From the IMG/VR virus record IMGVR_UViG_3300047089_000152, positions 40,151 to 104,150 of that record: a stretch of 64,000 nucleotides of DNA. The stretch is one strand, 5' to 3'. Positions 1 through 60,708 of the stretch are shown here, piece by piece. The DNA is from a virus. The first letter of the stretch is position 1, and each line of letters begins with the position of its first letter. The position numbers and the translations under genes are program-made. The notes below the pieces were generated by a model that saw nothing but the letters and a program-made list of their open reading frames with translations, searched no databases and was not told the origin of the DNA.

Positions 1-86
1 ACAATGATGGTACACTGTAGGTACGACAAGGGGTAAGTAGGTCGCCGCAGGGTGGCCGCATGCCCCCGGATCTGGAGGAAAAAAAG

Positions 87-3145: not shown

Positions 3146-3154
3146 TGGTACGCT
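3146..3154 (+). promoter_or_regulatory. extended -10 promoter upstream of a pentamer mini-array
   Basis: TGGTACGCT, the same motif found before other mini-arrays and leaderless genes. Confidence 0.6.
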
Positions 3155-3169
3155 GTGGGTACAGCAAAC

Positions 3170-3303
3170 GGACCGGAAGGGAAAGGCTGGGCGCGGCAGG
3201 CATCGCAGCGGCCGGGATAGCAGCGGATCGGAGCGGCAGGACAGGATTGGCAGGGCACGGCTGGGCTAGGTGTGGCTGGGCTGGGAACGGAATGGATTGG
3301 ACA
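3170..3303 (+). ncRNA. GGH-NN pentamer mini-array (2 units), putative guide RNA
   Basis: 13 pentamers, GGCAG-GACA delimiter at 3235, then 12 more pentamers. Confidence 0.75.
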
Positions 3304-3370: not shown

Positions 3371-4036
3371 ATGCCACCACGCAAGACCACCACAGGCGGA
3401 CCAGTCCAGCTCACCAGGCTGGCAGAAGAAGTCGCCCAAATCCACATCGCCGGGGCTACGCCACTTATTATTCATAAATGGTCGGAAAAGGCGCTCAACC
3501 AGATGCGGATCGCCCAGTCCGGGGCAATTAAGCCGCCCCGCGAACCCAAGAACGCCGAAGAAAACGCCCACGCGGCAACATACTGGGTCGACGTCGCCGA
3601 GACGATCCCCGGCATCCCCAGCGTCTCATTCAAGGCCGCCATGGTCGGAGCCTGCCGGTTCTTCGACGGCCTCCCCATGACGACAGCAAAATTGCTGTTC
3701 TTCGTCGACGGGGTCGTCAGCGAAGCCAAGGGCGACGCGCCAGCACGCGACCTGCTCGTCCCGATTATCTCCGGCCCTGGGGAAATGCGGGAAGACACCC
3801 CGCGCAACGACAACGGAAACCCGGACCTCCGGTACAGGAATCAGTTCTTCCCGTGGAAAGCCGTACTCAACGTGCGGTTCATGCCCGCGAAGATCGCCCC
3901 CGAATCCGTCATCGCGCTAGCTGACGCCGCCGGTCGTGGCGGTGTCGGAGAATGGCGTCCATCCGCACCGAAAAGCGCGACTGGCACATACGGCCAGTTT
4001 CGTGTCATCACCCGGAAGGAATGGGAGTCGGCCTAA
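3371..4036 (+). CDS. stand-alone Cas7/RAMP-like protein, putative guide-RNA-binding filament
   Basis: N-terminal strand IAGATPLIIH, GIPSVSFKAAM (cf. RAMP IPxSSxKG helix), C-terminal glycine-rich loop GRGGVGEWRP...GTYGQFRV; flanked by repeat arrays. Confidence 0.7.
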   Translation: MPPRKTTTGGPVQLTRLAEEVAQIHIAGATPLIIHKWSEKALNQMRIAQSGAIKPPREPKNAEENAHAATYWVDVAETIPGIPSVSFKAAMVGACRFFDGLPMTTAKLLFFVDGVVSEAKGDAPARDLLVPIISGPGEMREDTPRNDNGNPDLRYRNQFFPWKAVLNVRFMPAKIAPESVIALADAAGRGGVGEWRPSAPKSATGTYGQFRVITRKEWESA

Positions 4037-4037
4037 A

Positions 4038-4595
4038 ATGGCGACCATCACCGTCGAACAGCAGTGGGCGTTCAAATCGGGTGCGCGTGTCCCGGGTGGC
4101 GTCCACGCCGAGGATGTGGTGCGTGAGAAGGAACAGATGGAAGACCACCTGGGCCGCCTCGCCACCACGGAGGAAGCCGCGGAAATGGTCCTCCGCTGGC
4201 CTACCAAGTACAAGGCGCACCGGGCGTTCGCACCGGCAACCGAGAAAGAAGCACTCCACGAAGCAGTGGTACGCGGTGTTCGGAGCGCCTGGAGTTCCGT
4301 GATTCAGGTCGACGTCGAAATCACCGAGGTCACCAACCGGATTTCCGGTGATATCGAGATCGCAACCAGGCGTGTCGACGCACCCGAAGTGAGATGGTTT
4401 CACGCCGTGCCAGCACGCGTCGGCGACACGCAACGAGTTTATGACTCGTTGCCGAATATCGCAGCCGATGCTGACAAGGAAGCGGCGCTGTCCGAAGATC
4501 TCGCCACGCAAGCACGCAACTTCTCCGCAAAAGTAGCCAGCGTCACTGGCGAGCTGGCGCGGTTGCACAAGTTGCGCAGCACCGCCGGAAATTAG
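4038..4595 (+). CDS. partner protein of the Cas7-like gene, function unknown
   Basis: ATG 1 nt after the upstream stop; predicted helical; sits directly before the main array. Confidence 0.7.
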   Translation: MATITVEQQWAFKSGARVPGGVHAEDVVREKEQMEDHLGRLATTEEAAEMVLRWPTKYKAHRAFAPATEKEALHEAVVRGVRSAWSSVIQVDVEITEVTNRISGDIEIATRRVDAPEVRWFHAVPARVGDTQRVYDSLPNIAADADKEAALSEDLATQARNFSAKVASVTGELARLHKLRSTAGN

Positions 4596-4644: not shown

Positions 4645-5923
4645 GGAGTGGAGGGGCAGGGACTGTCGTGGCAAGGAACGGCAGGGCACGGAGTGGATTG
4701 GCAGGATAGGCTCGGCGCGGCCAGGCGGGGAGCGTTTCGGAGTGGCATGGATTGGCTGGGACTGGCAGTATCGGATCGCAGTGGTCAGGGTAGGCAAGGC
4801 CCGGCCAGGCGGGGCTCGGTATGGCCTGCACTGGCGGGGAACGCAATGGAGTGGCAGGACCGGTGTGGAATGGCTGGGACGGGAACGGCGCGGTAGGGAA
4901 TGGAGTGGCAGGAACGGTGGGGCCGGGCGCGGCGCGGCTAGGCTCGGCGCGGACGGGCATGGATTGGCTGGGCAGGACAGGATCGGAGAGCAGGGGGCTG
5001 GCGCGGCATGGCACGGAGAGGCAGGAGAGGAACGGTCGGGACAGGAGCGGCAAGGAGCGCACCGGCAGGCAGCGGCAGGGAATGGCATGGAACGGACTGG
5101 ATTGGCAGGACAGGACCGGCATGGCCAGGAGGGGCATGTCCTGGAATGGAATGGCAGGAATGGCTGGGTACGGCGGGGCCGGGCGAGCATTGGACAGGAC
5201 CGGCAGTCGCGGAAGGGCTCGGCAGGGACCGGATTGCAGCGGCGAGGATGGGCTAGGCAGGAGCGGAACGGCAGGGCATGGCCTGGATCGGAGCGGCTGG
5301 GCAGGATAGGCATGGATCGGCCTGGGTAGGCAAGGAGGGGCTGGGACGGGACCGGATTGGCAGGGCAGCAGTGGAGAGGCAAGCCGTGCAATGGCGGGGC
5401 GGGGCGTGGCATGGACTGGACCGGCAGGACTGGACTGGACTGGATTGGAGAGCAGGGCAGTGGCAGGGATCGTAGGGGTTCGGACGGGCAGGTTAGGCTT
5501 GGACGGGCTAGGCGTGGCATGGGCCGGCAAGGAACGGCTCGGAGCGGCAGGGATTGGCACGGCTCGGAGTGGCAGGACCGGACGGGTACGACGTGGCGTG
5601 GCTGGCATTGGCAAGGACTGGCAGGAGTGGATTGGCAGGGCCGGGCTTGGCATGGCGTGGCTGGGAATGGCGTGGCAGGACAGGTGGGGCTTGGCGGGCC
5701 GGGGATCGGCACGGATGGGCATGGCATGGCCCGGTAGGGCATGGCAGCATTGGACTGGACCGGACCGGCAAGGCTTGGCTTGGCTGGGATCGGATGGGAA
5801 CGGCAGGAGCGGAGCGGACTGTCGTGGCATGGCATGGCCTGGCGTGGCGCGGATCGGACGGGCAGGATAGGTCGGGCGTGGAATGGAACGGACGGGCTGG
5901 GCATGGAACGGCAGGATAGGAGT
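4645..5923 (+). repeat. main GGH-NN pentamer array, about 21 units, putative multi-guide precursor RNA
   Basis: strict 5-nt periodicity; GGCAG+4-nt delimiters at 4700, 4764, 4853, 4907, 4971, 5020, 5104, 5153, 5202, 5256, 5300, 5364, 5423, 5487, 5571, 5620, 5674, 5743, 5802, 5861, 5910; all spacings are 5n+4. Confidence 0.92.
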
Positions 5924-5980: not shown

Positions 5981-6133
5981 ATGATCTTGTGCTCGTGCGG
6001 CCATCCTGCGGTCGAGCATGACCTGAACCGTTCGGAGACTAAGCGAACAGTTTGCCTGACCACCGAACGGACTACGAAATGTCCGTGCGTGCTATATTCA
6101 CCAGACCTTCGTGATACACTAGAGGTACAATGA
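5981..6133 (+). CDS. small Cys/His zinc-binding protein
   Basis: MILCSCGHPAVEH...C...CPC. Confidence 0.55.
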   Translation: MILCSCGHPAVEHDLNRSETKRTVCLTTERTTKCPCVLYSPDLRDTLEVQ

Positions 6134-6999
6134 ACGAGACCATAGAACGAGAAGACCGCAGGGCCGTCACCGCGCTCACCTCCGGGGAAAACGCCACGAA
6201 GGTCACCGTCAAAACAAGCGACGGCAACTACGAAGAACGACAGCTAACCGTCCACGGGCTCGCACGGCTGATTCCCGTGATCGCACTGGGCGACATGGAC
6301 CGGCTGATAGACGACGTGCGCGAACACGGCGTCCTCGAACCCCTGATCATGTTCCAGGGACAAGTCCTTGACGGACGCAACCGGCTCGCCGTAGCTTCGG
6401 TCGTCGGCGTACCCGTGCAGCTCACCGAATTCGACGGAGACGAAGCCGCAGCCAGAAACTTCGTCTGGTCCGCGAACGCTGCGAGGCGGCACCTGTCCGT
6501 CCCCCAGATCGCGCTGGCCGCTGAACGGTTCGGTTTCGTCGACGCCGCCAAAGCCGAAGCAGGCCCCGACGACCCCAACCTGGATATCCGCTCGACGGTC
6601 GCACCATGGGCGCGAATCGCCGCGCGAAAGGTCGGTGCGATCACCCCGGCTACACTGGAACGGTTCCAGCAAGCCAGGATCCCCGAGGCACCCGACACGA
6701 TGCGCCGGGTCGATTCCGGTGAGATCCGCCGGGTCGACGTCGCGGTCAAGGAAGCGGTCGCGGAGCGGACCGTGCTCACCGGCCGTCTCATCCAGGTTCC
6801 ACCCCCGGTTGCGCGTACCGCGTGGGACCGGCTGGGCTGCGCGCGGGGTGACGTTCTCGCCGCGGAACGCGCCATCCTGGCAGGGGACTGGGGTGGGATG
6901 GAAAGGGACCAGTTCGCTGTCCGCGCCCGTGAAATCCAGGGAGCCCTGATCAGGATTCAGAATTTGTATCGTTATGGATCGGGCGGCAGGACCGGTTAG
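6130..6999 (+). CDS. ParB/Srx-like N-terminal domain protein
   Basis: LIDDVREHGVLEPLI...VLDGRNRL...SANAARRHLS. Confidence 0.85.
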   Translation: MNETIEREDRRAVTALTSGENATKVTVKTSDGNYEERQLTVHGLARLIPVIALGDMDRLIDDVREHGVLEPLIMFQGQVLDGRNRLAVASVVGVPVQLTEFDGDEAAARNFVWSANAARRHLSVPQIALAAERFGFVDAAKAEAGPDDPNLDIRSTVAPWARIAARKVGAITPATLERFQQARIPEAPDTMRRVDSGEIRRVDVAVKEAVAERTVLTGRLIQVPPPVARTAWDRLGCARGDVLAAERAILAGDWGGMERDQFAVRAREIQGALIRIQNLYRYGSGGRTG

Positions 7000-7057
7000 G
7001 ACGGGCTAGGAATGGCTGGGCTGGGCATGGACTGGAATGGCAGGAATGGAATGGCTA
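6985..7057 (+). ncRNA. GGH-NN mini-array (1 full unit), putative guide RNA
   Basis: GGCAG-GACC + 9 pentamers + GGCAG-GAAT. Confidence 0.75.
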
Positions 7058-7323
7058 AGCCGGATTTCGCCCACGGCGTGCAAGGCTACAACTGGCACAA
7101 GTGCCGGTGCGAACAGTGCCGGGCGGCTAACTCCGCCCGGTCCCGTACCTCCCGCGCTGCCCGCAAAGCACGCACCGCGGCGGGTGACCCCGCCGTCCCG
7201 CACGGGACCAGGGGCGGGTACACCAACTGGGCGTGCCGGTGCCTGCCATGCTCCCAGGCCAACAGCGAGGCGTGCCTGGAATACCGGAACGCCCACAGTA
7301 ACCGTCAGGACATCGTGACCTGA
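7051..7323 (+). CDS. actinophage-type zinc-finger protein
   Basis: two HG..GY...CRC..C repeats. Confidence 0.75.
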   Translation: MAKPDFAHGVQGYNWHKCRCEQCRAANSARSRTSRAARKARTAAGDPAVPHGTRGGYTNWACRCLPCSQANSEACLEYRNAHSNRQDIVT

Positions 7324-21025: not shown

Positions 21026-21484
21026 TCAGGTACCAGCGATACCGGAAGACGGGTAGCGGATGATCGGCGTTGCAGCATTCCACGTCGACTTCAGGCTGAC
21101 CGCAGCGGAGACACCACCAGCAACCGAGTAGTCCGGCAGGACCGCGCCGAAGAAGTACTGGCCGGGGGCGGTGCCCTGCGCACCGATAGTCGACGGGTAC
21201 AGGTACATGTTCCGCGAAAGACCATCCGTCGCAGCCACATACGTCTGCGCCGTGGCCGTGTCATAGAACCCCGAGAAGTCACCCGACGCGTCGGGCAGGC
21301 CAGCGACCCAGATCAGGTTCGGGTCACCCATCGCGGTCACGTCAACCTTGTTCACCACGAAGTTGATAGACCAGTCAGTCAGAAACGCCATCGGCGACGC
21401 GATAGCCGTACCGGTAGCGAGACCACCACCGGGACCGGTGACCCCGACGTAAACGATCCCGTTACGACCGTGGATACGTGACAT
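21026..21484 (-). CDS. major tail (tube) protein
   Basis: SRIHGRNG...DWSI...DVTAMGD...GLPDASGDFSGFYD. Confidence 0.85.
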   Translation of the reverse strand: MSRIHGRNGIVYVGVTGPGGGLATGTAIASPMAFLTDWSINFVVNKVDVTAMGDPNLIWVAGLPDASGDFSGFYDTATAQTYVAATDGLSRNMYLYPSTIGAQGTAPGQYFFGAVLPDYSVAGGVSAAVSLKSTWNAATPIIRYPSSGIAGT

Positions 21485-21502: not shown

Positions 21503-22558
21503 TCAGTGTTCCAGGAGTTCCAGCAGGCGTTTCGCGTTGCTGGTGAACGTGCGGTCAGCGATAGCCTCACGCGCTTTGTATGCCGCCTGTTCCCGTTCAC
21601 TATCGTGGGCGAGCCACCAGCGGATCTGATCCCCTGCCTCTTCCGGGCTGGAGAACGTAGGGAGCATGTCCAGCACCGAATCCCCCTCCGCGCGGGGATC
21701 GCGGAGGTAGAAAAGCCCGCACGCCGCTTGTTCCACCTCACGGGGCCCCATCGCCCACGGGACGGCGGTGCTGTCAGCGTCCGCGTCGTCGTATTCGCGG
21801 CGGTAAAAGTTGATGCCGCACTTCGCGTTGCGGTACACCTCGGCCACTTCGCTGTTGTCGACACAGTCGTCAATGTCATGGCCCATGAACCTGCGCAGCG
21901 GAGACTTCGACGCCCCCGGCCAGCAGCCCCCCAGCAGCACGTCCAGGCCGTCCAGGTTCATCCGCTCGAAAAAGTCGATGCGGGACTGGAACCCCGTCCC
22001 GATGAACGCCAGGTCCGCCGCGAGGTCCACGTTGACAGGGCCCGTGCGAGGGTAATGCACGGAAGGCCGGTACGCGTGCGGCGCATACTCCGCGACGGCA
22101 CCTAGCTCCCGGTACTGCTCAATGTTCACCGGGTCGTTCAGCAAGACGATGTCGCTGCATTCCGCGCGTTCCAGCTGCATCTTTTCCTGGTACGGCGACT
22201 CGGTGGCGAGCAGGACAACTTTCATCCGCCGCTGCTGAAGCAGGGCCATCAGCCCCGGGGTGACGAAGAAACCGGAAACGAAAATAACCGCGTCTGGCCA
22301 GAACGTGAAAGCCGCATGAGAGATGCCCTGCATCGCCATGCGCAGCGCGTCCTCGTCGTTCATCGCCCGGCGTACCAGCGGGTGCCCCGACTCGTCCACG
22401 TCCCCCGTGGAAATCAAAGCATGACCGTAAAATTGTATACGATCATCAGAATTAAAACTGGCAACTTCACACCCAAGCTCCCGCAGCGCCTCACACCAAC
22501 CGTCATGCACATCAGCCACAGAAAAATTTGGGCCTGGATGTACCACTAGTATGCGCAC
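21503..22558 (-). CDS. glycosyltransferase (CgeB / Glyco_trans_1_2-like, GT-B)
   Basis: DLAFIGT...R, YRNAKCGINF, GPREVEQAACG; likely GTG start at VRILVVHPG. Confidence 0.8.
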   Translation of the reverse strand: MRILVVHPGPNFSVADVHDGWCEALRELGCEVASFNSDDRIQFYGHALISTGDVDESGHPLVRRAMNDEDALRMAMQGISHAAFTFWPDAVIFVSGFFVTPGLMALLQQRRMKVVLLATESPYQEKMQLERAECSDIVLLNDPVNIEQYRELGAVAEYAPHAYRPSVHYPRTGPVNVDLAADLAFIGTGFQSRIDFFERMNLDGLDVLLGGCWPGASKSPLRRFMGHDIDDCVDNSEVAEVYRNAKCGINFYRREYDDADADSTAVPWAMGPREVEQAACGLFYLRDPRAEGDSVLDMLPTFSSPEEAGDQIRWWLAHDSEREQAAYKAREAIADRTFTSNAKRLLELLEH

Positions 22559-22598: not shown

Positions 22599-22667
22599 GC
22601 ATTGGAGGGGCATGGCATGGCACGGCCCGGAGTGCTGGGGTGGGGAACGGAATGGATGGGCAGGATA
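22599..22667 (+). ncRNA. GGH-NN mini-array (1 unit), antisense to the late operon
   Basis: 12 pentamers + GGCAG-GATA, intergenic. Confidence 0.8.
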
Positions 22668-22689
22668 GATCCAGGTTGGTGCGCATCTT

Positions 22690-23100
22690 TTACAGGTGCG
22701 CACCAACCTGGATCAGAAATGAGCATCCCATGTATTGCTGGCCGGCGTATTCGGTGAGTCCGTAGGTCATCACCTGCAATACGACCGTGAACTCCACCGC
22801 CCCGCCCAGGGTCGGGTCAGCCTGCACCGCCGCGTTGATGCTTTTAGTACCGGACGTGGACACGTAGTCGTCGATTACGTCCTGGCCGGAAGCGTCGTTC
22901 GCGGCGGATACCAGCACGACGGCGAGGAGATTGACCTGGGTTTCGCCGTCCATCGTGATGCCGTAATTGACCGCTGGCCGGTTCGGGATTATGACCGCGC
23001 ATGGCGGTATGACCTGCCCGGGTGCGATCGCGTGTACGTTCAGCCCGGTGGTGGATAGCCGGGTTGCGAGCGCGACCCTGATCGCTTTGACGTTAGCCAT
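22690..23100 (-). CDS. tail terminator / tail completion protein
   Basis: position; SINAAVQADPTLGG motif. Confidence 0.7.
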   Translation of the reverse strand: MANVKAIRVALATRLSTTGLNVHAIAPGQVIPPCAVIIPNRPAVNYGITMDGETQVNLLAVVLVSAANDASGQDVIDDYVSTSGTKSINAAVQADPTLGGAVEFTVVLQVMTYGLTEYAGQQYMGCSFLIQVGAHL

Positions 23101-24129: not shown

Positions 24130-25839
24130 TCAGGTCACTGATCCTGTTCCGGTATTCCCGGTCACCTTCGTCGTGCCATCTCTCGGGTCGCTGACCCCGC
24201 TGACGCCCGCCTTTCCGGTGACACTGCCCGCACCAGAATTACCGGTGACGGTGCCCGCACCGGTCTGACCGGTCACCGTTACTGTCACCTCGGCGCTTAC
24301 CAGCAGCGGAGGCGGTATGAAAACGTACGTCCCGGCTCGCCATTCCGCCCGCCCTGTGAGGACCGGTTTCTGCGGCTGCGCGCGGAGCGCGTGACCGAGT
24401 GGCCTGACGGGTGGCCCGGTCTGCGCGTACGGGCCACGCTGCGAACCGACACGACCCCGGGTGGGTGGCGGCGGCTGCCTGCGGTAGATCCCCACAGGAC
24501 CGGACTGCGGTTTGACCGGTGGCCCGGCTTGCGCATAGGTTCCTGCGGCGCGGATTACCCGTCCGCCTGCTGTCGGGAACCTGCGGGCTACGACCGGATG
24601 CCCAAGCGGGTATATCGGGGGCCCGGCTTGTGCTGAGATCGCGGTGAACGTCCCGGCCCGGCTGGATACCCGACCGTGCGGTAGTAGCGGCTGCCTGGCC
24701 TGGACCGGACCCGTAGCGGGCTTGACCGGTGGCCCGGCCTGCGCGAAGGTTCCGCGCCGTGTGGAGGTGACACCGCCACGGGTCGGGAACCGTCGTGCCT
24801 GAACCGGGTGACCCAGCGGGTAGACGGGTGGCCCGGCACCGATGATGACCAGGGTGAACGTGCCTGCACGGCTGGTGGTGCTGCCACCGCGTCGTGCTGC
24901 TGGCTGCGCCCGCACCGGACCCGTAGCCGGTTTGACGGGTGGGCCGAGCTGAGCGTATGTTCCGTGCTGGGATGCGACCCTGCCCCGGACGGGCAGCGGT
25001 GGCTGCCTGCGTCCCAGGCCGACAGGCCCAGATGCGGGTTTTACCGGTGCACCCAGCTGCGCGTAGACGCCAGCCCGGGTGCTGGTACTACCACCACGTA
25101 CCGGGAACCTGCGCGCCGCAACAGGATGACCCAGCGGATAGACCGGAGGGCCGAAACCGGTGACGACCGTGGTGAACGTGCCGGCCCGGTTAGCTACCCG
25201 GCCGACACGCTGTGCCGCTGGTTGCGCGCGGACTGGCCCGGTAGCGGGTTTAATCTGCGCACCTAGCTGCGCGTAAACACCAGCGCGGCTGCTGGTGCGG
25301 CCACGTGGCGGAAGCCCGCGTAGCTGTGTTGCGACCGGGGCAACCAGTCGCCGTACAGGTGCGCCGAGTTGGGCGTAGACCCCGGCGCGGTTCTTGACGC
25401 GGCCGGTCAGGAACGGGACAGCGGGTTGCGCCTTGACGGGGCCGCGTAGCTGCCTTACTGGGGCACCCAGCTGGGCGTAAACCCCGGCCCGGCTGGTGGT
25501 GCTGCCACCGCGGGCCGGGAGCCTGCGTGCCTGTACCGGCCTCCCGGTCGGATAGACCGGTGGGCCCGCCTGCGCTGCTGTAGCGGTGAACGTCCCGTCG
25601 CGGGACAGTACCCTGCCACCGGCCTGCGCGCCCGGCTGAGCCTTTACTGGTGCGCGCAGGACCCGTACTGGTGCGCCCAGCTGGGCGTAGACACCGGCAC
25701 GGTTCGCGACCCTGCCGCCACGGGCGGGTAGCTGTACTGGTGCGCGGACCGGCTTATGGAGAGCGCTTGCGGGTGCGCCGGGTGGCTGCGCCCGGATCAG
25801 TACCGGCTGGATTGGCTGGCCGCGCCCGAGGATAGCCAT
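24130..25839 (-). CDS. basic Arg/Pro/Gly-rich repeat protein
   Basis: many 30-40 aa repeats such as GGRVxSRAGxYAQxGPPVxPxxGPVxA. Confidence 0.75.
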   Translation of the reverse strand: MAILGRGQPIQPVLIRAQPPGAPASALHKPVRAPVQLPARGGRVANRAGVYAQLGAPVRVLRAPVKAQPGAQAGGRVLSRDGTFTATAAQAGPPVYPTGRPVQARRLPARGGSTTSRAGVYAQLGAPVRQLRGPVKAQPAVPFLTGRVKNRAGVYAQLGAPVRRLVAPVATQLRGLPPRGRTSSRAGVYAQLGAQIKPATGPVRAQPAAQRVGRVANRAGTFTTVVTGFGPPVYPLGHPVAARRFPVRGGSTSTRAGVYAQLGAPVKPASGPVGLGRRQPPLPVRGRVASQHGTYAQLGPPVKPATGPVRAQPAARRGGSTTSRAGTFTLVIIGAGPPVYPLGHPVQARRFPTRGGVTSTRRGTFAQAGPPVKPATGPVQARQPLLPHGRVSSRAGTFTAISAQAGPPIYPLGHPVVARRFPTAGGRVIRAAGTYAQAGPPVKPQSGPVGIYRRQPPPPTRGRVGSQRGPYAQTGPPVRPLGHALRAQPQKPVLTGRAEWRAGTYVFIPPPLLVSAEVTVTVTGQTGAGTVTGNSGAGSVTGKAGVSGVSDPRDGTTKVTGNTGTGSVT

Positions 25840-39107: not shown

Positions 39108-39327
39108 GCCGCCCATGACCTCCGGTCGTGCCGGGCTACAGCGGGACCGCGCCCACCGGGACACGCACCGCGTGCACATGACGGTCGGGTCGTACGGGTC
39201 CAGTCGCGTCCATGCGCCACACCAGAAACAGTACCCCACGGCATAAGCCCTCCACGGACAGGCTGCCGGGGTCTAGGACAGCGGTTATGTATAACCCTGA
39301 CCGTCGTTAGCATCATAGCGTCCCATG

Positions 39328-39336
39328 TGGTACGCT
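39328..39336 (+). promoter_or_regulatory. extended -10 promoter of a mini-array
   Basis: TGGTACGCT. Confidence 0.65.
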
Positions 39337-39351
39337 TAGAGTCCGAGCCGA

Positions 39352-39429
39352 GGCAGGATGGGATTGGCATGGCGCGGCAAGGTAGGGCTCGGATCGGCAA
39401 GGAATGGATAGGAACGGCAGGAGTGGCAG
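39352..39429 (+). ncRNA. GGH-NN mini-array (1 unit)
   Basis: GGCAG-GATG + 11 pentamers + GGCAG-GAGT, followed by a hairpin. Confidence 0.82.
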
Positions 39430-39431
39430 GG

Positions 39432-39460
39432 TGCGGTCCTCTCGTATCGGGAGGACCGCA
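39432..39460. terminator. hairpin between the mini-array and the convergent radical SAM gene
   Basis: TGCGGTCCTC...GAGGACCGCA. Confidence 0.7.
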
Positions 39461-39477
39461 TCTCCATTTTCCAACCG

Positions 39478-40761
39478 TCATCCTGCCGCCATATGTGAGT
39501 CGAAGAAATTATCCTTCGGGCCGATATGGGAACGGAACTTGTACTTACGGATCAATTCCTCGCGGATTCCCACGAGGTCTTCTGAACTGAGTTCCGCCGT
39601 GCGGACCACGGAATCGGTACCCATGTTCTTTTGCCCGTAGGCGCCAAGTCCTTCTCCAGTAAATATCAGGTCGGTAGCTATTCCCTCGTCCATTTCCCGC
39701 CTGAATTCTGTGCCGCGATAAGGATAATAGATAGCAATCTGCGCATCATCTATCCCTGACGTGCAGATGAACCGTTCAGTCTCCGCGATCGTAGCGCGTG
39801 TCTCGCCGGGTAGCCCGATCATCACGAATGCTTTCACGGTGATGCCCGCATCCTTGCAGTACCGGACACAATCGTAATTCTGCGTGGCGGTTGTCTTCTT
39901 ATCCATCCGGTCTAGCATCTGCTGCGACCCGGATTCCGCACCAAACGCCACCTCGACACACCCCGCATCGGCTAGCGCCGCGGCGAACTCCGCGGTCATG
40001 AATTTCGCGTGCACATTGCAGCGAAATCTTAGCCCGGAGCGCTTGAGTAGGTCCAGGTACGGCTGGCACTTCCCCAAATTAATTGCAAAAAGATCATCAT
40101 ACAAATACACGCCCTCATACCCGAGCGTCACGATGTCGTCCAGTTCGGCCTCGGCGTTGCCCAGCGAAGTCCACCTGGTCAGCGTCCGCGCGTCTTCACA
40201 GAACTTGCACGCCATCGGACAGCCCCGGCCGAGCATCATCGTGGTCGAGTTCAGCCCGGCCAGGGTGTACGAGTAGTTTTTCAGGAACCCAGGCTCACCC
40301 AGCCGGTCCGGGCGGGGCATCGCCGCTAGTTCCTGCCGGGGGATCTGGTCGTTGCTCATGACAGGAACCGTTTTGTTCTGCACGATGCCTGGCAGTGCCC
40401 GCTCCCCGTCGCCTGCCACCAGGTAGTCCCACAGCCCGGCCTGGTCGTCTGCGTTCATCTCCCGGCCGTAATGCCGGACGTGCGGGCCGCCTGCCACCAG
40501 AACTTTGGACGGCCAGCGGCTCCTGATCGCGCGGGCTATCCGGTTAGCCTCGGCGCGCTGCGGTGTCATCACCGAGACGCCTACTATGTCAGCGTCCGCG
40601 AACTGGTCCAGATCCTCGACGTCGTATTCGTCTACGACGCTGATCTTAGTACCGGGGGCCTGCGCGGCCACCGCGGATTTCAGGTACAGCAGGCCGAGGG
40701 GCGGGTAGATACGGTCGTCGTCCAGGAACGGGGACCGGCAGGAAACCAGGGACAGTTTCAT
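39478..40761 (-). CDS. cobalamin-binding radical SAM enzyme (class B methyltransferase-like)
   Basis: PPLGLLYL, GGPH, GDGE B12 domain; GRGCPMACKFC; GAESGSQ; IGLPGET. Confidence 0.92.
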   Translation of the reverse strand: MKLSLVSCRSPFLDDDRIYPPLGLLYLKSAVAAQAPGTKISVVDEYDVEDLDQFADADIVGVSVMTPQRAEANRIARAIRSRWPSKVLVAGGPHVRHYGREMNADDQAGLWDYLVAGDGERALPGIVQNKTVPVMSNDQIPRQELAAMPRPDRLGEPGFLKNYSYTLAGLNSTTMMLGRGCPMACKFCEDARTLTRWTSLGNAEAELDDIVTLGYEGVYLYDDLFAINLGKCQPYLDLLKRSGLRFRCNVHAKFMTAEFAAALADAGCVEVAFGAESGSQQMLDRMDKKTTATQNYDCVRYCKDAGITVKAFVMIGLPGETRATIAETERFICTSGIDDAQIAIYYPYRGTEFRREMDEGIATDLIFTGEGLGAYGQKNMGTDSVVRTAELSSEDLVGIREELIRKYKFRSHIGPKDNFFDSHMAAG

Positions 40762-40773
40762 GCACGCAGACTA

Positions 40774-40953
40774 CTATGTCTGCTTCCACACGCCAGGGCC
40801 GGACTCGAAATCGGACGTGGCGTGACCTGACATGTCACACGGGCCACCCTCGATCGCGTCGTCCCATCCTGCCACGGAACCCTCCGCGGTAGCGTCGTAA
40901 GGCTGGCCGGGCACGTTAGGCGGTGACGTGATCGGGTCCGGTGCTTTAGCCAT
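40774..40953 (-). CDS. small acidic protein
   Basis: MAKAPDP...; RBS GGGAG. Confidence 0.55.
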   Translation of the reverse strand: MAKAPDPITSPPNVPGQPYDATAEGSVAGWDDAIEGGPCDMSGHATSDFESGPGVWKQT

Positions 40954-46049: not shown

Positions 46050-46406
46050 TCAGGATTTCCTGGCGGGCCGGGCCTTATTCATAGATTTCGCGGGCTTTTT
46101 AGCCGCGGGCTTAGCCGCAGCAGGCTTCGCTTCGGCAGCAGGCTTCGCGGTCTTCGCGGCAGCTGAATCGCCCTTACCCTGCGAGGATGGCAACTCCGGG
46201 TATTTCCGACGGACCGCTGCCTGAACTTTTGCCTTCTCCGCAGGCGTCCCATTCGCCGCAACTCGTGACAGGGCGTTAGCGCCCCGTGCCTTAGAGTTAA
46301 TAGGGTATGCGTCAGCACCACCAGGACCACCACCAGGCAGCGCATACGACCCAGCCGGCGCGGCAGTATTAGGCGCAGGCTTACCGGTCTTCTTCCTCGG
46401 TGGCAT
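46050..46406 (-). CDS. basic head-region protein with Lys/Pro/Ala-rich tail
   Basis: YALP...YPI...NALSR...VRRKYP, similar to the protease N-terminal extension. Confidence 0.7.
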   Translation of the reverse strand: MPPRKKTGKPAPNTAAPAGSYALPGGGPGGADAYPINSKARGANALSRVAANGTPAEKAKVQAAVRRKYPELPSSQGKGDSAAAKTAKPAAEAKPAAAKPAAKKPAKSMNKARPARKS

Positions 46407-46425: not shown

Positions 46426-46499
46426 GGTATGGAGGGGTGCGGCTTGGCGTGGCTTGGCGGGGCGCGGCGGGGATTGCATTGGATTGGATTGGCAGGAAC
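46426..46499 (+). ncRNA. GGH-NN mini-array (1 unit)
   Basis: TATAAT at 46406-46411; 13 pentamers + GGCAG-GAAC; then a hairpin. Confidence 0.8.
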
Positions 46500-46535: not shown

Positions 46536-48164
46536 TTCCCGTTGTGTCCGTTTGAGCTGGCCTTCGGCGGAATCCACGGCCCGACGAACTCGGGGCCAAG
46601 CGCATCATCACGTTCCGCCTGGCGGACCGCTGCGACAATCTTCGCGAACACTTCCGGGTGGACACTGGAACCATCGCCGCGCACGGACGTGATCTCCTTG
46701 ACGATCTCCTGGAGAACATTCGGCGGGACGAACCCGCCCGCACCCGCAGCACCAGCCGCACCCGCCACGGCAGGCCCGTTCGCGCCCAGAGCACCAGGCA
46801 CGTTTATCCCAGGCGGGGCGTTCCCCGCACCAGGCCCCGACGGCTGACCCGTACCCGGCGGCAACCCCACCGGCTCCTGACCAGCCTGGAGTTCTTGCAG
46901 ATACTCGACCAGCAGCCGCTGTTCCAGGGTGACCTGCGGGAGGAACGAATTCGGGATCGCCCGCGTCGACCGGGCCATCGCGACAATCGCGTCCAGCGGG
47001 ATCGTGTCCTTACCCATCTGCTGCGGCAACGGCTCCAGGTCCTCCGTGTCACGCATCTCATCAATCGACTTGAACCCGATGTCCCGCCACGTCTTGTAAA
47101 TGTTCGCCCGTTCAGCCAGGTCAGCTTTCAGCAGCGCGTCAGTAGCGAACCGGGCGTAACGGTTCGCCGGTAGCAGCTTGAAGAACGCGGTCTCCAGCCG
47201 GACCAGCCACGGGCGCAGCGCCTCGATGATCTGCAACGCACCCTGCTGCACCGTGGAATACGTCAGCGAGTCGCCACGCTTACCACCCACCCGGTCAGGA
47301 GGCAATCCATAAACAGCGGCGAGCTGCGTCGCGTTCATCTGCATCGCCTCAATAAACTGCGCCTCCGACGGCGGAACAGTCACCGGGTGATAATCCCAGT
47401 CACGACCGTATACCAAGGGGGTCCTGTTGCGAATCGACTGGTTCAGTGCGCTGCGGATCTCCGCAGCCTGCGACGGGTCGATCTCGATCTCGTTGTTCTT
47501 GAACGTACCCGGAGGGAACCCGCCGGCCTTGAACCAGTCCGTCCCGAACCGGGTAGCCTCCAGGCCATTCAGGATCGTCAACGCGAACGCGCGCAGCGGA
47601 GAGATACCCTCCGTGCGGCCAGCAAGACTGAATGCCTTGATGTGGAAATATTCGTCGCGCTGCATCAACCGCCCGTAAAAATACACGCGGGACCGAAGCG
47701 GATTGTACGGCTGCGACTCGTCGTCAATGACCGTGATCATCTCCGGGGGCATCCACTGGATCTGCGTCGGATACCCGTACCCGTCACGCCCCAGAATGTA
47801 TCCCCACGCGTTACCGTGCAGCAAAAGCGCGGTCAAGCATTCATAAAGCCAATCCATAAGATTTGTTGACGGGGACGGGTCGTCGAATATCGACGGGCCA
47901 TCCCACTTCTTCTGCCCCGCACCCGGCGTTTTAATGTAAACTTTCAGCGGCAACGACGCGATGTACTCAGCGATCATCCGCACGCACGCGTACAGCGGTG
48001 TCAGTCTTAGCGCCTCGTCGGCCCCGTAAAACGAACGGGACGGATGCGCAGGGCCACCAGCACTGAAGGGAAAGTAAATACGGCGAGTCCCACGGCCTCC
48101 AGGGCACGCCAGAAATAACACGACTCTCAGTTTTACTCGCCAGTACCCGCTCGACCAGACCCAC
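46529..48164 (-). CDS. HK97-family portal protein (apparent frameshift near codon 30)
   Basis: YACVRMIA...SLPL, LLLHGNAW, GISPL, AQFIE, YSTVQQ; natural N-terminus MGLVERV lies in another frame. Confidence 0.9.
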
Positions 48165-49367: not shown

Positions 49368-50267
49368 CTACAATCCCTTGTCGGTCATCCACGTCTGCGC
49401 GGCCTTGGCTACCTTCGCGTTTCCGCCGATGTGGTGGAGCTGCACCCACGGGTGGAGCAGCGTGGCGAACGCGACGTCGTCGGTGTTGTGACCCGGGACA
49501 GGCACCGGGGGTACCGGGACAGGGACGGGTGCGGGGGCGGTCAACGGCAGGGACACGGTCGCGTCACCCTGTTCGGCTAGCAGCCGTTCCAGTGTCGCGT
49601 AGGAGTAGCAGAATGAGCCGTCGACACCGAACCCTGTGCCCCACGAATTGTCCAGGAACAGGATCTTCTTGTCGACGTCCTTGCCGCGGCACAGATATTC
49701 GTGGCCACCCCGGATCTGCGCGCCAGGGCTGACGGCTACGAGGCCGCTGCTATCGGGTCGGTCCATCGAGTCATACCAATTCGACCCGATGCCTACCGGG
49801 CCTGCTTCCAGCGCGTCGAGGACGTCTGCGAGGGAGAAGCAGTGCAGGTACCCCGAAATCCAGCCCATGTTCTTCGCGACCTGCGCCGCCGACGGCCCCG
49901 ACGAACCATTGTCGTTGGGAGGGTAGGGACCATCCCCGTCGATGGTCTCAGCCCCACTGTAGATCCGCAGCGCCAGCGGCTCATCCAGAGGGATGTGACC
50001 GGCTGGTAGCGCGTCGAACAGGGGTCCCGTGCCGAGCGCACCAACCTGCTCGTTTCCGGTGCAGGACCCGACGTTGCCCTGATCCAGGATGGGGATCTGC
50101 CGGGGCCACAGCTGGGTCGTTAGCCCCGCCGCGGTCCGCTGCCACGGATATGCGCGGTTCCGCTCGTCATGATACAGATTCCGCCCCAAGGGCAGGGGGT
50201 TCTCGGCTGATGCAGCCTGCCAAGGGATGCGGGCACGCTGGGTGGACCATGCGGTCACTACAACCAT
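49368..50267 (-). CDS. papain-like cysteine peptidase (possible endolysin-type)
   Basis: LDQGNVGSCTG, GGHEY, NSWG catalytic motifs. Confidence 0.8.
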   Translation of the reverse strand: MVVVTAWSTQRARIPWQAASAENPLPLGRNLYHDERNRAYPWQRTAAGLTTQLWPRQIPILDQGNVGSCTGNEQVGALGTGPLFDALPAGHIPLDEPLALRIYSGAETIDGDGPYPPNDNGSSGPSAAQVAKNMGWISGYLHCFSLADVLDALEAGPVGIGSNWYDSMDRPDSSGLVAVSPGAQIRGGHEYLCRGKDVDKKILFLDNSWGTGFGVDGSFCYSYATLERLLAEQGDATVSLPLTAPAPVPVPVPPVPVPGHNTDDVAFATLLHPWVQLHHIGGNAKVAKAAQTWMTDKGL

Positions 50268-50279
50268 GAGTCTCCTACG

Positions 50280-50288
50280 TGGTACACT
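50280..50288 (+). promoter_or_regulatory. extended -10 promoter of a mini-array
   Basis: TGGTACACT(GTAGGTAC), identical to positions 8-24. Confidence 0.7.
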
Positions 50289-50303
50289 GTAGGTACAGAA
50301 AGG

Positions 50304-50362
50304 GGATAGGAGCGGCAGGGCTTGGCCTGGAGAGGATCGGCTGGGATTGGATTGGCAGGCTT
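50304..50362 (+). ncRNA. GGH-NN mini-array (1 unit)
   Basis: 10 pentamers + GGCAG-GCTT. Confidence 0.78.
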
Positions 50363-60544: not shown

Positions 60545-60567
60545 GACACCCGTGGTACACTAAGGGT

Positions 60568-60708
60568 ATGACATGCCTTAAATGTTCGTGTGGTAAGACG
60601 ATCACCCGCCGCGAGAACAAGCTGAACGCCGGGCTGTGTAACAAATGCTTCGAGCAGGCGCTAAGAGTCACGGCCCGGGAAGTCGCGAAGCGGCTGGGTA
60701 AGAAGTGA
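60568..60708 (+). CDS. 46-aa zinc-finger protein; leaderless
   Basis: TGGTACACT + 6 nt + ATG; CSCG...CNKC. Confidence 0.6.
   Translation: MTCLKCSCGKTITRRENKLNAGLCNKCFEQALRVTAREVAKRLGKK

What the first reader, a model, noticed from the sequence alone, without database searches (positions are those of the whole stretch)
40072..40110. Self target sites have conspicuously A/T-ending codons in a GC3-rich genome
Seen: the radical SAM site reads TAT TTG TAT GAT GAT CTT TTT GCA ATT AAT TTG, the ParB site ATT CAG AAT TTG TAT CGT TAT GGA, and the 46353 site CCT..CCT AAT ACT. Similar short patches occur without a recognised guide at 3461-3481 (Cas7-like gene), about 22410-22530 (GT), about 47835-47870 and 47930-47945 (portal). 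Inference, option 1: the skipped wobble base is flipped out and prone to C-to-T damage. Option 2: the guide G after each NN can pair with a wobble C, so loss of C is selected as escape. Orphan patches may be footprints of other guides.
Basis: partly seen in the sequence, partly recalled or inferred. Interest (0 to 1): 0.7.

Follow-up and report, generated by a model that had tools for sequence, protein, structure and literature searches.

The report
T-ending codons at VIPR self sites
In a GC-rich phage carrying the RNA-guided VIPR silencing system, the phage's own copies of two sites read by its stand-alone guide RNAs have C-ending codons silently rewritten to T-ending ones, which hints that the 'skipped' third base may matter more than published work assumes.

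Summary
Observation partly confirmed. The quoted codons are present. The radical SAM patch (40075-40110) is one of three 30-mers of 30% GC or less in the window. It coincides exactly with the best genome-wide match (20/24 nt) of the neighbouring solo VIPR guide (39352-39420). It is also derived: 13 GC-rich homologues encode the same motif with C/G-ending codons.

Over five guide footprints (58 codons), wobble C is depleted (11 vs 25.7 expected) and T enriched (22 vs 6.7), while G and A are as expected. That is C-to-T on the strand the guide pairs with.

The signal rests on two sites, rSAM and ParB-like (within-gene p about 0.01 each; Fisher 0.007):
- The 46353 site only shares its gene's low GC3.
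- The tail-terminator site shows nothing.
- The ParB-like site overlaps its cassette's promoter.

Similar derived patches have no matching guide (GT, portal, rSAM C-terminus, vipr).

Option 1's premise (skip base extruded) is supported, but damage is unproven.

Best reading (0.45): VIPR engagement at near-cognate self sites purges target-strand skip-position cytosines, by selection for self-tolerance or by deamination. The scan noted AT-rich patches beside VIPR guides in another genome (e1-5842218).

The parts
40075..40110 (-). Self near-target of solo guide S_39352 inside the radical SAM gene. Twelve codons, nine of them A/T-ending (eight T). This is the derived recoded patch.
   Evidence: (20/24 nt against a shuffle mean of 15.9, max 18)
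39326..39465 (+). Solo vrRNA cassette. Extended -10 TGTGGTACGCT at 39326-39336; GGN-NN guide units at 39352-39420; GC-rich hairpin plus T-run at about 39425-39465.
39478..40761 (-). B12-binding radical SAM gene. Carries the footprint and two further recoded patches (39631-39696, 39700-39759).
6949..6978 (+). 3' end of the ParB-like gene 6130-6999. Self near-target of S_ParB (18/20 nt) with five T-ending codons. Overlaps the cassette's probable -10 (TATCGT, 6965-6970).
6985..7057 (+). Solo vrRNA S_ParB (10 guide units between GGCA punctuation marks)
46353..46391 (-). Near-target of S_46426 in codons 6-18 of a small basic Ala/Pro/Lys-rich gene (46050-46406). Six of 13 codons are T-ending, but the whole gene has low GC3.
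46426..46499 (+). Solo vrRNA S_46426
22981..23016 (-). Near-target of S_22604 in the tail terminator gene (19/24 nt). No T-ending excess. GC-to-AT changes here are mostly nonsynonymous (V to I, D to N).
22599..22672 (+). Solo vrRNA S_22604
50145..50177 (-). Weak near-target of S_50304 in a peptidase gene (self 15/22 nt, relative G002 17/22). Mild T-ending excess (3 vs 1.5).
50304..50362 (+). Solo vrRNA S_50304, behind a TGGTACACT promoter
3371..4036 (+). vipr gene (Cas7-like RAMP). Has an AT-ending patch at 3452-3490 on its conserved N-terminal motif.
4645..5923 (+). Main vrRNA array: 21 guides separated by GGCA tetramers. None matches the phage itself or three relatives above the shuffle null.
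22409..22468 (-). Orphan recoded patch in the glycosyltransferase gene (13 T-ending of 20 codons). Derived relative to homologues. No matching guide.
47825..47878 (-). Orphan recoded patch in the portal gene, with a second at 47276-47317. Derived. No matching guide.

Best explanation
The window belongs to a 104-kb, 64% GC phage with a VIPR system: a Cas7-like Vipr protein and guide RNAs built of GG-N-NN pentamers. These guides read two bases of the target and skip the third.

Besides the main array, the phage carries stand-alone guide cassettes wedged between late genes. Each cassette spells, in codon register and antisense to the mRNA, a motif of the neighbouring gene. The rSAM guide fits the rival phages' alleles (22/24 nt) slightly better than the phage's own (20/24).

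The patch at 40075-40110 is the phage's own, spared copy of that site. It has acquired the following changes:
- a Phe-to-Tyr change in a residue invariant in 16 homologues;
- Leu CTG-to-TTG switches;
- replacement of every C-ending codon by its T-ending synonym.

I propose that this T-for-C rewriting is a consequence of Vipr-vrRNA complexes engaging the near-cognate self site. Cytosines at the extruded skip position of the strand that pairs with the guide are purged. The likelier route is selection for self-tolerance, with the skip-base pocket or strand hand-off sensitive to base identity. The less likely route is faster deamination of the extruded C.

Shown:
- the match;
- the register;
- the derived state of the patch;
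- the C/T specificity.

Inferred:
- that the complex engages the self site;
- that skip-base identity matters.
For: 1. The guide-site link is real. The rSAM, ParB-like and tail-terminator satellites have their best hit in 208 kb of both strands within 0.7 kb of themselves and above every shuffle. The 46353 match only ties the shuffle maximum in nucleotides (19/26; 9/13 dinucleotides) and the 50145 match is within the null. All five are in wobble-skip phase and antisense. By contrast, 0 of 102 guides in 45 other VIPR loci show such a hit.
2. Exact coincidence. The 12-codon window with the largest net GC-to-AT divergence from relatives in this part of the gene is the guide-aligned window 40075-40110 (net +10, top 0.16% of 16,593 windows). 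The flanking 24 codons carry 1-2 such changes.
3. The patch is derived. Thirteen GC-rich homologues have 0-4 A/T-ending codons of 12 at the site, against 9 here. Five relatives' records that were searched, one of them 97% complete, have neither vipr nor arrays.
4. Base and strand specificity over 58 footprint codons. C is 11 vs 25.7 expected (P 1.3e-5) and T is 22 vs 6.7 (P 1.4e-7). G is 19 vs 20.4 and A is 6 vs 5.2. Ancestral C became A/T in 12/17 codons against a 17% baseline; ancestral G did so in 3/12 against 15% (Fisher 0.025).
5. Signs of selection away from the guide. These include the Phe-to-Tyr and Ser-to-Glu changes in otherwise conserved residues. Six-fold codon family switches occur in 4/9 cases against 13.4% elsewhere (p 0.023).
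6. Literature. The skip base is extruded into a narrow pocket (10.64898/2026.04.26.720927). Self-match lower than non-self match is a described way of avoiding autoimmunity (10.64898/2026.10.15.759431). [quoted passage not shown]
Against: - Only two of five footprints are individually significant within their genes. The tail-terminator site has no T excess, and the 46353 site merely mirrors its gene.
- The ParB-like footprint overlaps its cassette's probable promoter, which alone could demand TAT CGT.
- The rSAM gene has two further patches of equal strength with no guide. GT, portal and vipr have others.
- A relative without detected VIPR (G003, 66% complete) has patches of its own.
- Orphan patches include G-to-A, C-to-A and G-to-T changes.
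- The guide-site A:T ratio is not significantly different from that of the orphans.
- Published work states that specificity lies entirely in NN and that wobble changes cannot give escape.
- NN mismatches near the guide's 3' end might suffice for self-tolerance without any wobble effect.
- No expression or binding data exist for this phage.
Confidence: 0.45

Rival explanations
1. The patches are scars of other sequence-specific conflicts: rivals' guides in other registers, CRISPR spacers, homing nucleases, or short imported 'antidote' islands. On this view they are unrelated to the resident guide. They coincide with the guide site only because all such attackers favour the same conserved motifs. 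In a GC3-saturated genome, any heavy synonymous recoding looks A/T-ending.
For: - At least six comparable derived patches have no matching guide here, and none matches 102 foreign guides.
- G003 has its own patches at other places.
- The patches measure 36-60 nt.
- Two-fold codons can only go from C to T.
- Earlier scan notes from other genomes report recoded islands exchanged between relatives (e1-5969114, e1-5944025; unchecked).
Against: - The rSAM patch aligns with the guide footprint to within one codon.
- G-ending codons in the footprints are not recoded at all (19 vs 20.4). Blanket synonymous recoding would not spare them.
- The patches are not on unusually conserved stretches.
- No nuclease or spacer that reads these sites was found.
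Confidence: 0.25
2. The A/T-rich codons make a functional DNA element. It could be a promoter for the cassette (ParB-like site), or an easily opened stretch that helps the Vipr complex bind its own genome for autoregulation of neighbouring genes.
For: - The ParB-like footprint contains TATCGT 15 nt upstream of the first guide unit, the same spacing as in other cassettes. The relative G002 has TAC CGG there.
- The 46353 site lies just upstream of its cassette's TATAAT box.
- Codons within 150 nt of arrays are enriched in both T and A (16.7 and 13.4% vs 12.1 and 8.1%).
- Satellite guides have AT-rich NN (29-50% GC against 57% at codon positions 1-2).
- VIPR must open DNA while pairing only two of every three bases.
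Against: - The rSAM site is 650 nt from any cassette.
- Opening the duplex is strand-symmetric, yet G-ending codons are untouched.
- The self sites have moved away from the guide at the positions it reads (Phe to Tyr, Ser to Glu).
- A simple sigma-70 scan finds no promoter at 39200-40900, though that tool is not tuned to this phage's extended -10 promoters.
Confidence: 0.15
3. Chance heterogeneity of codon usage plus ascertainment. The first reader's eye was drawn to AT-rich patches, and guides with AT-rich NN necessarily match AT-rich codons.
For: - The distribution of A/T-ending counts is overdispersed: 224 of 25,009 windows have at least 8/12.
- The within-gene combined p is only 0.007, and 0.049 without rSAM.
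- Three of five sites are unremarkable.
Against: - Expectations were conditioned on NN context and on the gene.
- Guide sites were found by an unbiased scan, not by eye.
- AT-rich NN normally goes with more GC at the wobble position.
- The derived state is seen against 13 homologues.
Confidence: 0.1

Closest known systems
VIPR systems (Vipr RAMP + vap + GGY/NN vrRNAs; type II of Escherichia phage SUSP1 and a Pseudomonas fulva prophage; bioRxiv 10.64898/2026.04.26.720920 and 10.64898/2026.04.26.720927)
   Same: - A Cas7-like protein sits next to a pentamer-repeat array.
- Guides match targets by the xNN one-base-skip rule, with skips on codon wobble positions.
- The system is carried by a phage.
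   Different: - The third base of the repeat unit is A as often as C (162 A, 143 C).
- Guides are punctuated by GGCA tetramers.
- Published systems showed no self hit at 80% NN match or above. Here one self site reaches 8/10 and another 9/12.
- Published work treats the skipped base as irrelevant, whereas here it is non-randomly T instead of C.
Solo (orphan) vrRNAs with self-match lower than non-self match (bioRxiv 10.64898/2026.10.15.759431)
   Same: - Stand-alone promoter-guide cassettes lie away from vipr.
- The guide fits rivals' alleles at least as well as the phage's own copy (rSAM 22/24 vs 20/24; peptidase 17/22 vs 15/22).
   Different: - The published cases are in VIPR-null phages and satellites, and aim at vipr, vrRNA loci or decoy REP elements.
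- Here a VIPR-positive phage carries five cassettes, each beside the late gene it reads.
- Sparing of self is accompanied by silent C-to-T rewriting of skip positions.
Marker exclusion and co-conversion by free-standing homing endonucleases of T-even phages (from general knowledge)
   Same: - A weapon gene sits next to a resistant allele of its own target.
- The resistant allele differs by clustered, largely silent substitutions.
   Different: - No nuclease is identified.
- VIPR type II is a silencer, not a cutter.
- The accessory gene 3936-4595 has no recognisable family.
Cytosine deamination of unpaired DNA in R-loops and transcription bubbles (from general knowledge)
   Same: A strand-specific C-to-T bias at bases that the complex holds unpaired.
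   Different: - In ordinary R-loops the displaced strand is the exposed one. Here the affected strand is the one paired with the guide, at the extruded positions.
- No direct evidence of damage exists.

Membership tests
VIPR system | Vipr protein with a RAMP (Cas7-like RRM, G-loop, thumb) fold | tested here: met
   An AlphaFold2 model built from a 19-sequence alignment has pLDDT 82.3. Top Foldseek PDB hits are Cas7-type subunits of type VII, III-A, III-B and III-D complexes (E 5e-6, probability 1.00). Homologues at 27-33% identity sit beside arrays in more than 20 IMG/VR loci.
VIPR system | Array of GGY/NN pentamer repeats next to vipr | tested here: met
   Pentamers occupy 4645-5923 and 3170-3303. 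Departure from the published form: the Y position is A in 162 units, C in 143, T in 21 and G in 5.
VIPR system | Guides match DNA by the one-base-skip (xNN) rule, with skips on wobble positions | tested here: met
   The rSAM, ParB-like and tail-terminator satellites exceed all shuffles; the 46353 match ties the shuffle maximum and the 50145 match is within the null. All five are in phase 0 with the codons. The rSAM guide matches 16 homologues at 20-22 of 24 nt. No target was found for the 21 main-array guides.
VIPR system | Accessory vap gene next to vipr | tested here: inconclusive
   ORF 3936-4595 follows vipr but has no Pfam or PHROG family.
VIPR system | vrRNAs are expressed, bound by Vipr and carry a structured 3' tail | not testable with these tools
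   No RNA run holds the stretch. Cassettes end in GGA(G/T)T-GGCA and some in a hairpin. No pseudoknot analysis was done.
Solo vrRNA | Guide cassette with its own promoter, away from the vipr operon | tested here: met
   Five cassettes lie at 6985, 22599, 39352, 46426 and 50304, each behind an extended -10-like box. The promoters are sequence matches only.
Solo vrRNA | Self-match lower than match to rivals (autoimmunity avoidance) | tested here: inconclusive
   Met for rSAM (20 vs 22 of 24) and peptidase (15 vs 17 of 22). Not met for the ParB-like site (self 8/10, relative 4/8). About equal for the tail terminator.
Homing-endonuclease-type marker exclusion | A site-specific nuclease encoded beside the resistant allele | not tested
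   No nuclease was sought systematically. An HNH-like or HTH-like small ORF at 7012-7323 was seen but not followed up.

The most novel reading that the evidence does not exclude
In VIPR recognition the skipped base is not neutral. Cytosine at the extruded position of the target strand either favours engagement or is chemically vulnerable there. If so, silent C-to-T recoding is a real route to self-tolerance or escape, or else the complex acts as a local mutator. Either case contradicts the published view that wobble changes cannot affect VIPR targeting. The orphan recoded patches in portal, glycosyltransferase, rSAM and vipr would then be a fossil record of guides met in the past.
Probability: 0.3. 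Interest if true: 0.75.

Novelty: new variant of a known kind. Interest (0 to 1): 0.5.

Why it matters
VIPR was published in 2026 as a system whose gapped code makes it blind to silent mutations, and this is offered as the reason the code exists. A natural case in which the skipped positions of a phage's own near-target have been rewritten in one direction, on one strand, turns that claim into a cheap, direct test: compare C with T at skip positions.

If skip-base identity matters, three things follow:
- It refines the targeting rule for anyone reprogramming VIPR.
- It explains how a phage can carry guides against alleles of its own genes.
- It gives a way to read past conflicts from codon usage.

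If it does not matter, the patches point to another, still unknown, sequence-specific conflict among these phages.

Tried and rejected
- **Megablast against GenBank phages:** two 4-12 kb stretches gave no match.
- **Other carriers of the rSAM guide:** a seven-unit pattern search of IMG/VR found none.
- **Replication in other VIPR phages:** a complete relative of the Vipr protein (G006, 61 kb) has only a main array. In 45 other VIPR loci, 0 of 102 guides have a self near-target within the stored DNA. No independent replicate could therefore be built.
- **Foreign guides as the cause of orphan patches:** 102 guides were scanned against this phage and three relatives. Three exceeded 12 shuffles, about as chance predicts, and none fell on a patch.
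- **Sub-runs of seven units of this phage's own guides against the genome:** none hits an orphan patch.
- **Minus-strand satellite outside the window (genome 33350-33408):** no local near-target.
- **'Patches sit on the most conserved motifs':** not supported. Amino-acid identity in patches is ordinary for their genes.
- **'Low GC3 spreads far around cassettes':** once footprints and low-GC3 genes are removed, the excess is confined to 150 nt.
- **Pairing of the repeat's third base with the skip base:** 2-3 matches of 12, about chance (by hand).
- **Single-sequence structure prediction of Vipr:** failed, pLDDT 34.
- **Sigma-70 scan of 39200-40900:** no promoter-like site, but the tool also misses this phage's own extended -10 promoters.
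- **Sequencing runs:** no RNA holder is listed, and one DNA run holds a small share of the words.
- **Import of the patch from a low-GC homologue (L044-L046, 38-40% GC):** the patch is 81% identical to L044 against 69% to GC-rich relatives. That follows from codon choice alone and the flanks do not match, so I judged it unlikely.
Full report
**What the window is.** The window is bases 40151-104150 of a single 104,150-bp virus record. It has 64% GC and GC3 of 0.78. Recognised phage genes include portal, major head protein, large terminase, tail terminator and a 1580-aa tape-measure-sized ORF.

It carries a VIPR system, a kind first described in 2026 (bioRxiv 10.64898/2026.04.26.720920).
- ORF 3371-4036 folds as a Cas7-like RAMP. 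The model, built on a 19-sequence alignment, has pLDDT 82, and the top PDB matches are Cas7, Csm3 and Cmr subunits at E 5e-6.
- Homologues of this ORF lie beside pentamer arrays in more than 20 IMG/VR loci.
- A 1.3-kb array at 4645-5923 parses into 21 guides of GG-N-NN units separated by GGCA tetramers.
- Shorter cassettes with their own extended -10-like boxes lie at 3170, 6985, 22599, 39352, 46426 and 50304, all on the + strand. One more lies on the minus strand outside the window.

**Are the 'self targets' real?** I scanned every guide against both strands of the whole genome under the published xNN rule, using order-shuffled guides as the null.

None of the 21 main-array guides exceeds its null. 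The satellites behave differently. The best genome-wide hits lie next to their own cassettes, and three beat every shuffle:

| Satellite target | Best hit | Match | Shuffle null |
|---|---|---|---|
| ParB-like gene | 6949-6978 | 18/20 nt | mean 13.9, max 15 |
| rSAM gene | 40075-40110 | 20/24 nt | mean 15.9, max 18 |
| Tail terminator | 22981-23016 | 19/24 nt | max 18 |
| Small gene g46 | 46353-46391 | 19/26 nt, 9/13 dinucleotides | max 19 |

A fifth site, 50145-50177, is within the null for self (15/22), but the homologous site of a relative scores 17/22, which only equals that guide's shuffle maximum in the scan of relatives.

All five sites are in phase with the codons, so the skipped base is the wobble base. 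In all five the guide is complementary to the coding strand. As a negative control, 0 of 102 guides from 45 other VIPR loci have such a hit in their own stored DNA.

**The observation at the quoted sites.** The quoted codons are correct. Conditional on the first two codon bases, A/T-ending codons number as follows:
- rSAM: 9 of 12, against 2.2 expected (P 1.6e-5).
- ParB-like: 6 of 10, against 1.9 (P 0.005).
- 46353 site: 6 of 13, against 3.1 (P 0.07).
- Tail terminator: 3 of 12, against 2.2.
- Peptidase: 4 of 11, against 2.5.

Across the genome, A/T richness at codon positions 1-2 goes with more G/C at position 3 (r = -0.28). Of the 114 windows as A/T-rich at positions 1-2 as the rSAM site, only the rSAM windows themselves reach 9.

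The stricter test ranks each footprint among all windows of its own gene. It gives p = 0.012, 0.014, 0.22, 1.0 and 0.135 for T-ending codons at rSAM, ParB-like, 46353, tail terminator and peptidase. Fisher combined is 0.0066, or 0.049 without rSAM. The small gene holding the 46353 site has about 40% A/T-ending codons throughout, so that site is not special.

**The patch is derived.**
- Six IMG/VR and twelve metagenome loci (some are the same contigs) encode rSAM homologues at 64-80% identity.
- All keep the motif V-Y-L-F-D-D-L-F-A-I-(N/H)-L.
- The 13 GC-rich loci write it mostly as GTG TAC CTG TTC GAT GAC CTG TTC GCG ATC AAC CTG, with 0-4 A/T-ending codons. This phage has 9, plus a Phe-to-Tyr change seen nowhere else.
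- The 24 flanking codons carry one or two such changes.
- Five relatives' records that were searched, one of them 97% complete, have no vipr and no arrays.
- A codon-level comparison of all shared genes with three relatives gives a net GC-to-AT score per 12 codons with mean 1.0 and sd 2.5.
- On that scale the guide-aligned rSAM window scores +10 (top 0.16%), the ParB-like and tail-terminator windows +7 (top 1.8%), and the peptidase window +5 (top 7.5%).
- The rSAM guide matches all 16 homologues at 20-22 of 24 nt, and the phage's own copy at 20.

**The signature is T for C, not A/T in general.** Over the 58 footprint codons, again conditional on the first two bases:
- Wobble C is 11, against 25.7 expected (P 1.3e-5).
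- Wobble T is 22, against 6.7 (P 1.4e-7).
- Wobble G is 19, against 20.4.
- Wobble A is 6, against 5.2.

Against relatives, codons that end in C in the relatives end in A or T here in 12 of 17 cases, against a genome-wide 17%. Codons that end in G do so in 3 of 12, against 15% (Fisher 0.025).

Because every guide pairs with the coding strand, this is loss of cytosine at the skip position of the target strand. Leu, Arg and Ser codon-family switches, which do change the bases the guide reads, are also commoner in footprints (4 of 9 against 13.4%, p 0.023).

**What weakens the story.**
- Windows with at least 8 of 12 A/T-ending codons form 23 patches in the window's genes.
- The strongest patches without a guide are all silent rewritings relative to homologues:
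  - glycosyltransferase 22409-22468, plus its N-terminus;
  - portal 47825-47878 and 47276-47317;
  - rSAM 39631-39759;
  - vipr 3452-3490.
- No guide of this phage matches these patches, in whole or in seven-unit runs, and neither do 102 foreign guides.
- In these patches both T and A are enriched, and some changes are C-to-A or G-to-T.
- At aligned positions this phage has about six times more such patches than relatives G002 and G004. G003, however, has many of its own.
- The patches are not on unusually conserved stretches.
- With footprints and low-GC3 genes removed, the excess of T and A is confined to 150 nt around cassettes.
- The ParB-like footprint contains TATCGT 15 nt before the first guide unit, the spacing seen in the other cassettes. 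The relative has TAC CGG at that place. A promoter could therefore explain part of that site, and the guide would then match its own promoter.

**What the literature allows.**
- Cryo-EM of two VIPR complexes shows the GGY bases locked in the protein. Both G's are syn, with their Watson-Crick faces bound by protein.
- The target's skip base is extruded into a narrow pocket between the thumb and the helical bundle.
- Opening of the DNA is protein-driven and proceeds from the guide's 3' end (10.64898/2026.04.26.720927).
- The published skip-rule target constructs used only G as the skip base, and the papers state that wobble changes cannot give escape. I found no dedicated test of skip-base identity in the parts I read.
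- Solo vrRNAs, and self-match lower than non-self match, are described in 10.64898/2026.10.15.759431.

**Verdict.** The best-supported reading (0.45) is that the T-for-C rewriting is a consequence of the Vipr-vrRNA complex engaging a near-cognate self site. I lean towards selection for self-tolerance. The reason is that the silent changes travel with amino-acid and codon-family changes that move the self site away from the guide. In the rSAM site, the self-specific mismatch sits next to another one near the guide's 3' end, where opening starts. Deamination of the extruded C is the alternative within this reading.

The rivals are:
- other sequence-specific conflicts or imported islands (0.25);
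- a functional A/T-rich element such as a promoter or an easily opened autoregulatory site (0.15);
- chance (0.10).

The strand-specific sparing of G-ending codons argues against the second and third rivals, but it rests on 58 codons.

**Known or new.** The system, the solo cassettes and the sparing of self are known kinds. Notes of this scan report guide-beside-recoded-target pairs in at least eight other genomes, and A/T-rich codon patches beside VIPR guides in one (unchecked notes). What is new here is the directional, strand-specific rewriting of the skipped positions. That makes the published 'wobble-blind' claim directly testable.

Noticed in passing
window 6949-6985: The S_ParB guide's near-target (18/20 nt) covers the probable -10 box (TATCGT, 6965-6970) of its own cassette. 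The guide may therefore repress its own promoter, giving negative feedback.
   Followed up: partly
window 6949-6978, 22981-23016, 40075-40110, 46353-46391, 50145-50177: All five satellite guides are complementary to the coding strand of the neighbouring gene (antisense to the mRNA). Published VIPR targets lie on both strands.
   Followed up: partly
genome 33350-33408 (window -6800..-6742), minus strand: A further solo cassette lies outside the window, behind a TATGATACC box. It is also antisense to the adjacent gene but has no local near-target. That gene has two GC-to-AT-rich patches (-7662..-7597 and -6924..-6856).
   Followed up: partly
window 4645-5923: None of the 21 main-array guides matches this phage or three related phages above a shuffle null. 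Their targets are unknown. The NN bases of these guides are 51% GC, against 57% at codon positions 1-2 of the genome.
   Followed up: partly
window 8-40, 2941-2973, 3146-3178, 50280-50312, 60553-60585: A repeated TGGTAC(A/G)C(T/G)-GTAGGTAC-like motif looks like this phage's own extended -10 promoter. Three copies precede pentamer tracts.
   Followed up: no
window 46050-46406: A small (118 aa), very basic Ala/Pro/Lys-rich protein with KPAA-type repeats. About 40% of its codons are A/T-ending throughout. It is divergent from the S_46426 cassette, whose TATAAT box overlaps the gene's start.
   Followed up: partly
L027-L033 (relative G003), aligned to window 21095-21160, 22304-22351, 47234-47275: A related 139-kb phage record (66% complete, no vipr found) has its own silent A/T-ending patches in a virion-region gene, the glycosyltransferase and the portal. 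They lie at places other than in this phage, except for one shared at the glycosyltransferase N-terminus.
   Followed up: partly
window 24130-25839: A gene with internal 102- and 210-nt direct repeats (repeat families D7-D9, D12) and unusually even GC at all codon positions. It is probably a repetitive fibre-type protein.
   Followed up: no
window 7012-7323: A small Cys-rich ORF right after the S_ParB cassette. It has weak PHROG matches to HTH DNA-binding and HNH-endonuclease families.
   Followed up: no
L044 (metagenome contig, 40% GC): In a low-GC rSAM homologue, the same 12-codon motif has 11 A/T-ending codons. That ranks in the top 0.4% of windows in its own gene (GC3 0.43).
   Followed up: no
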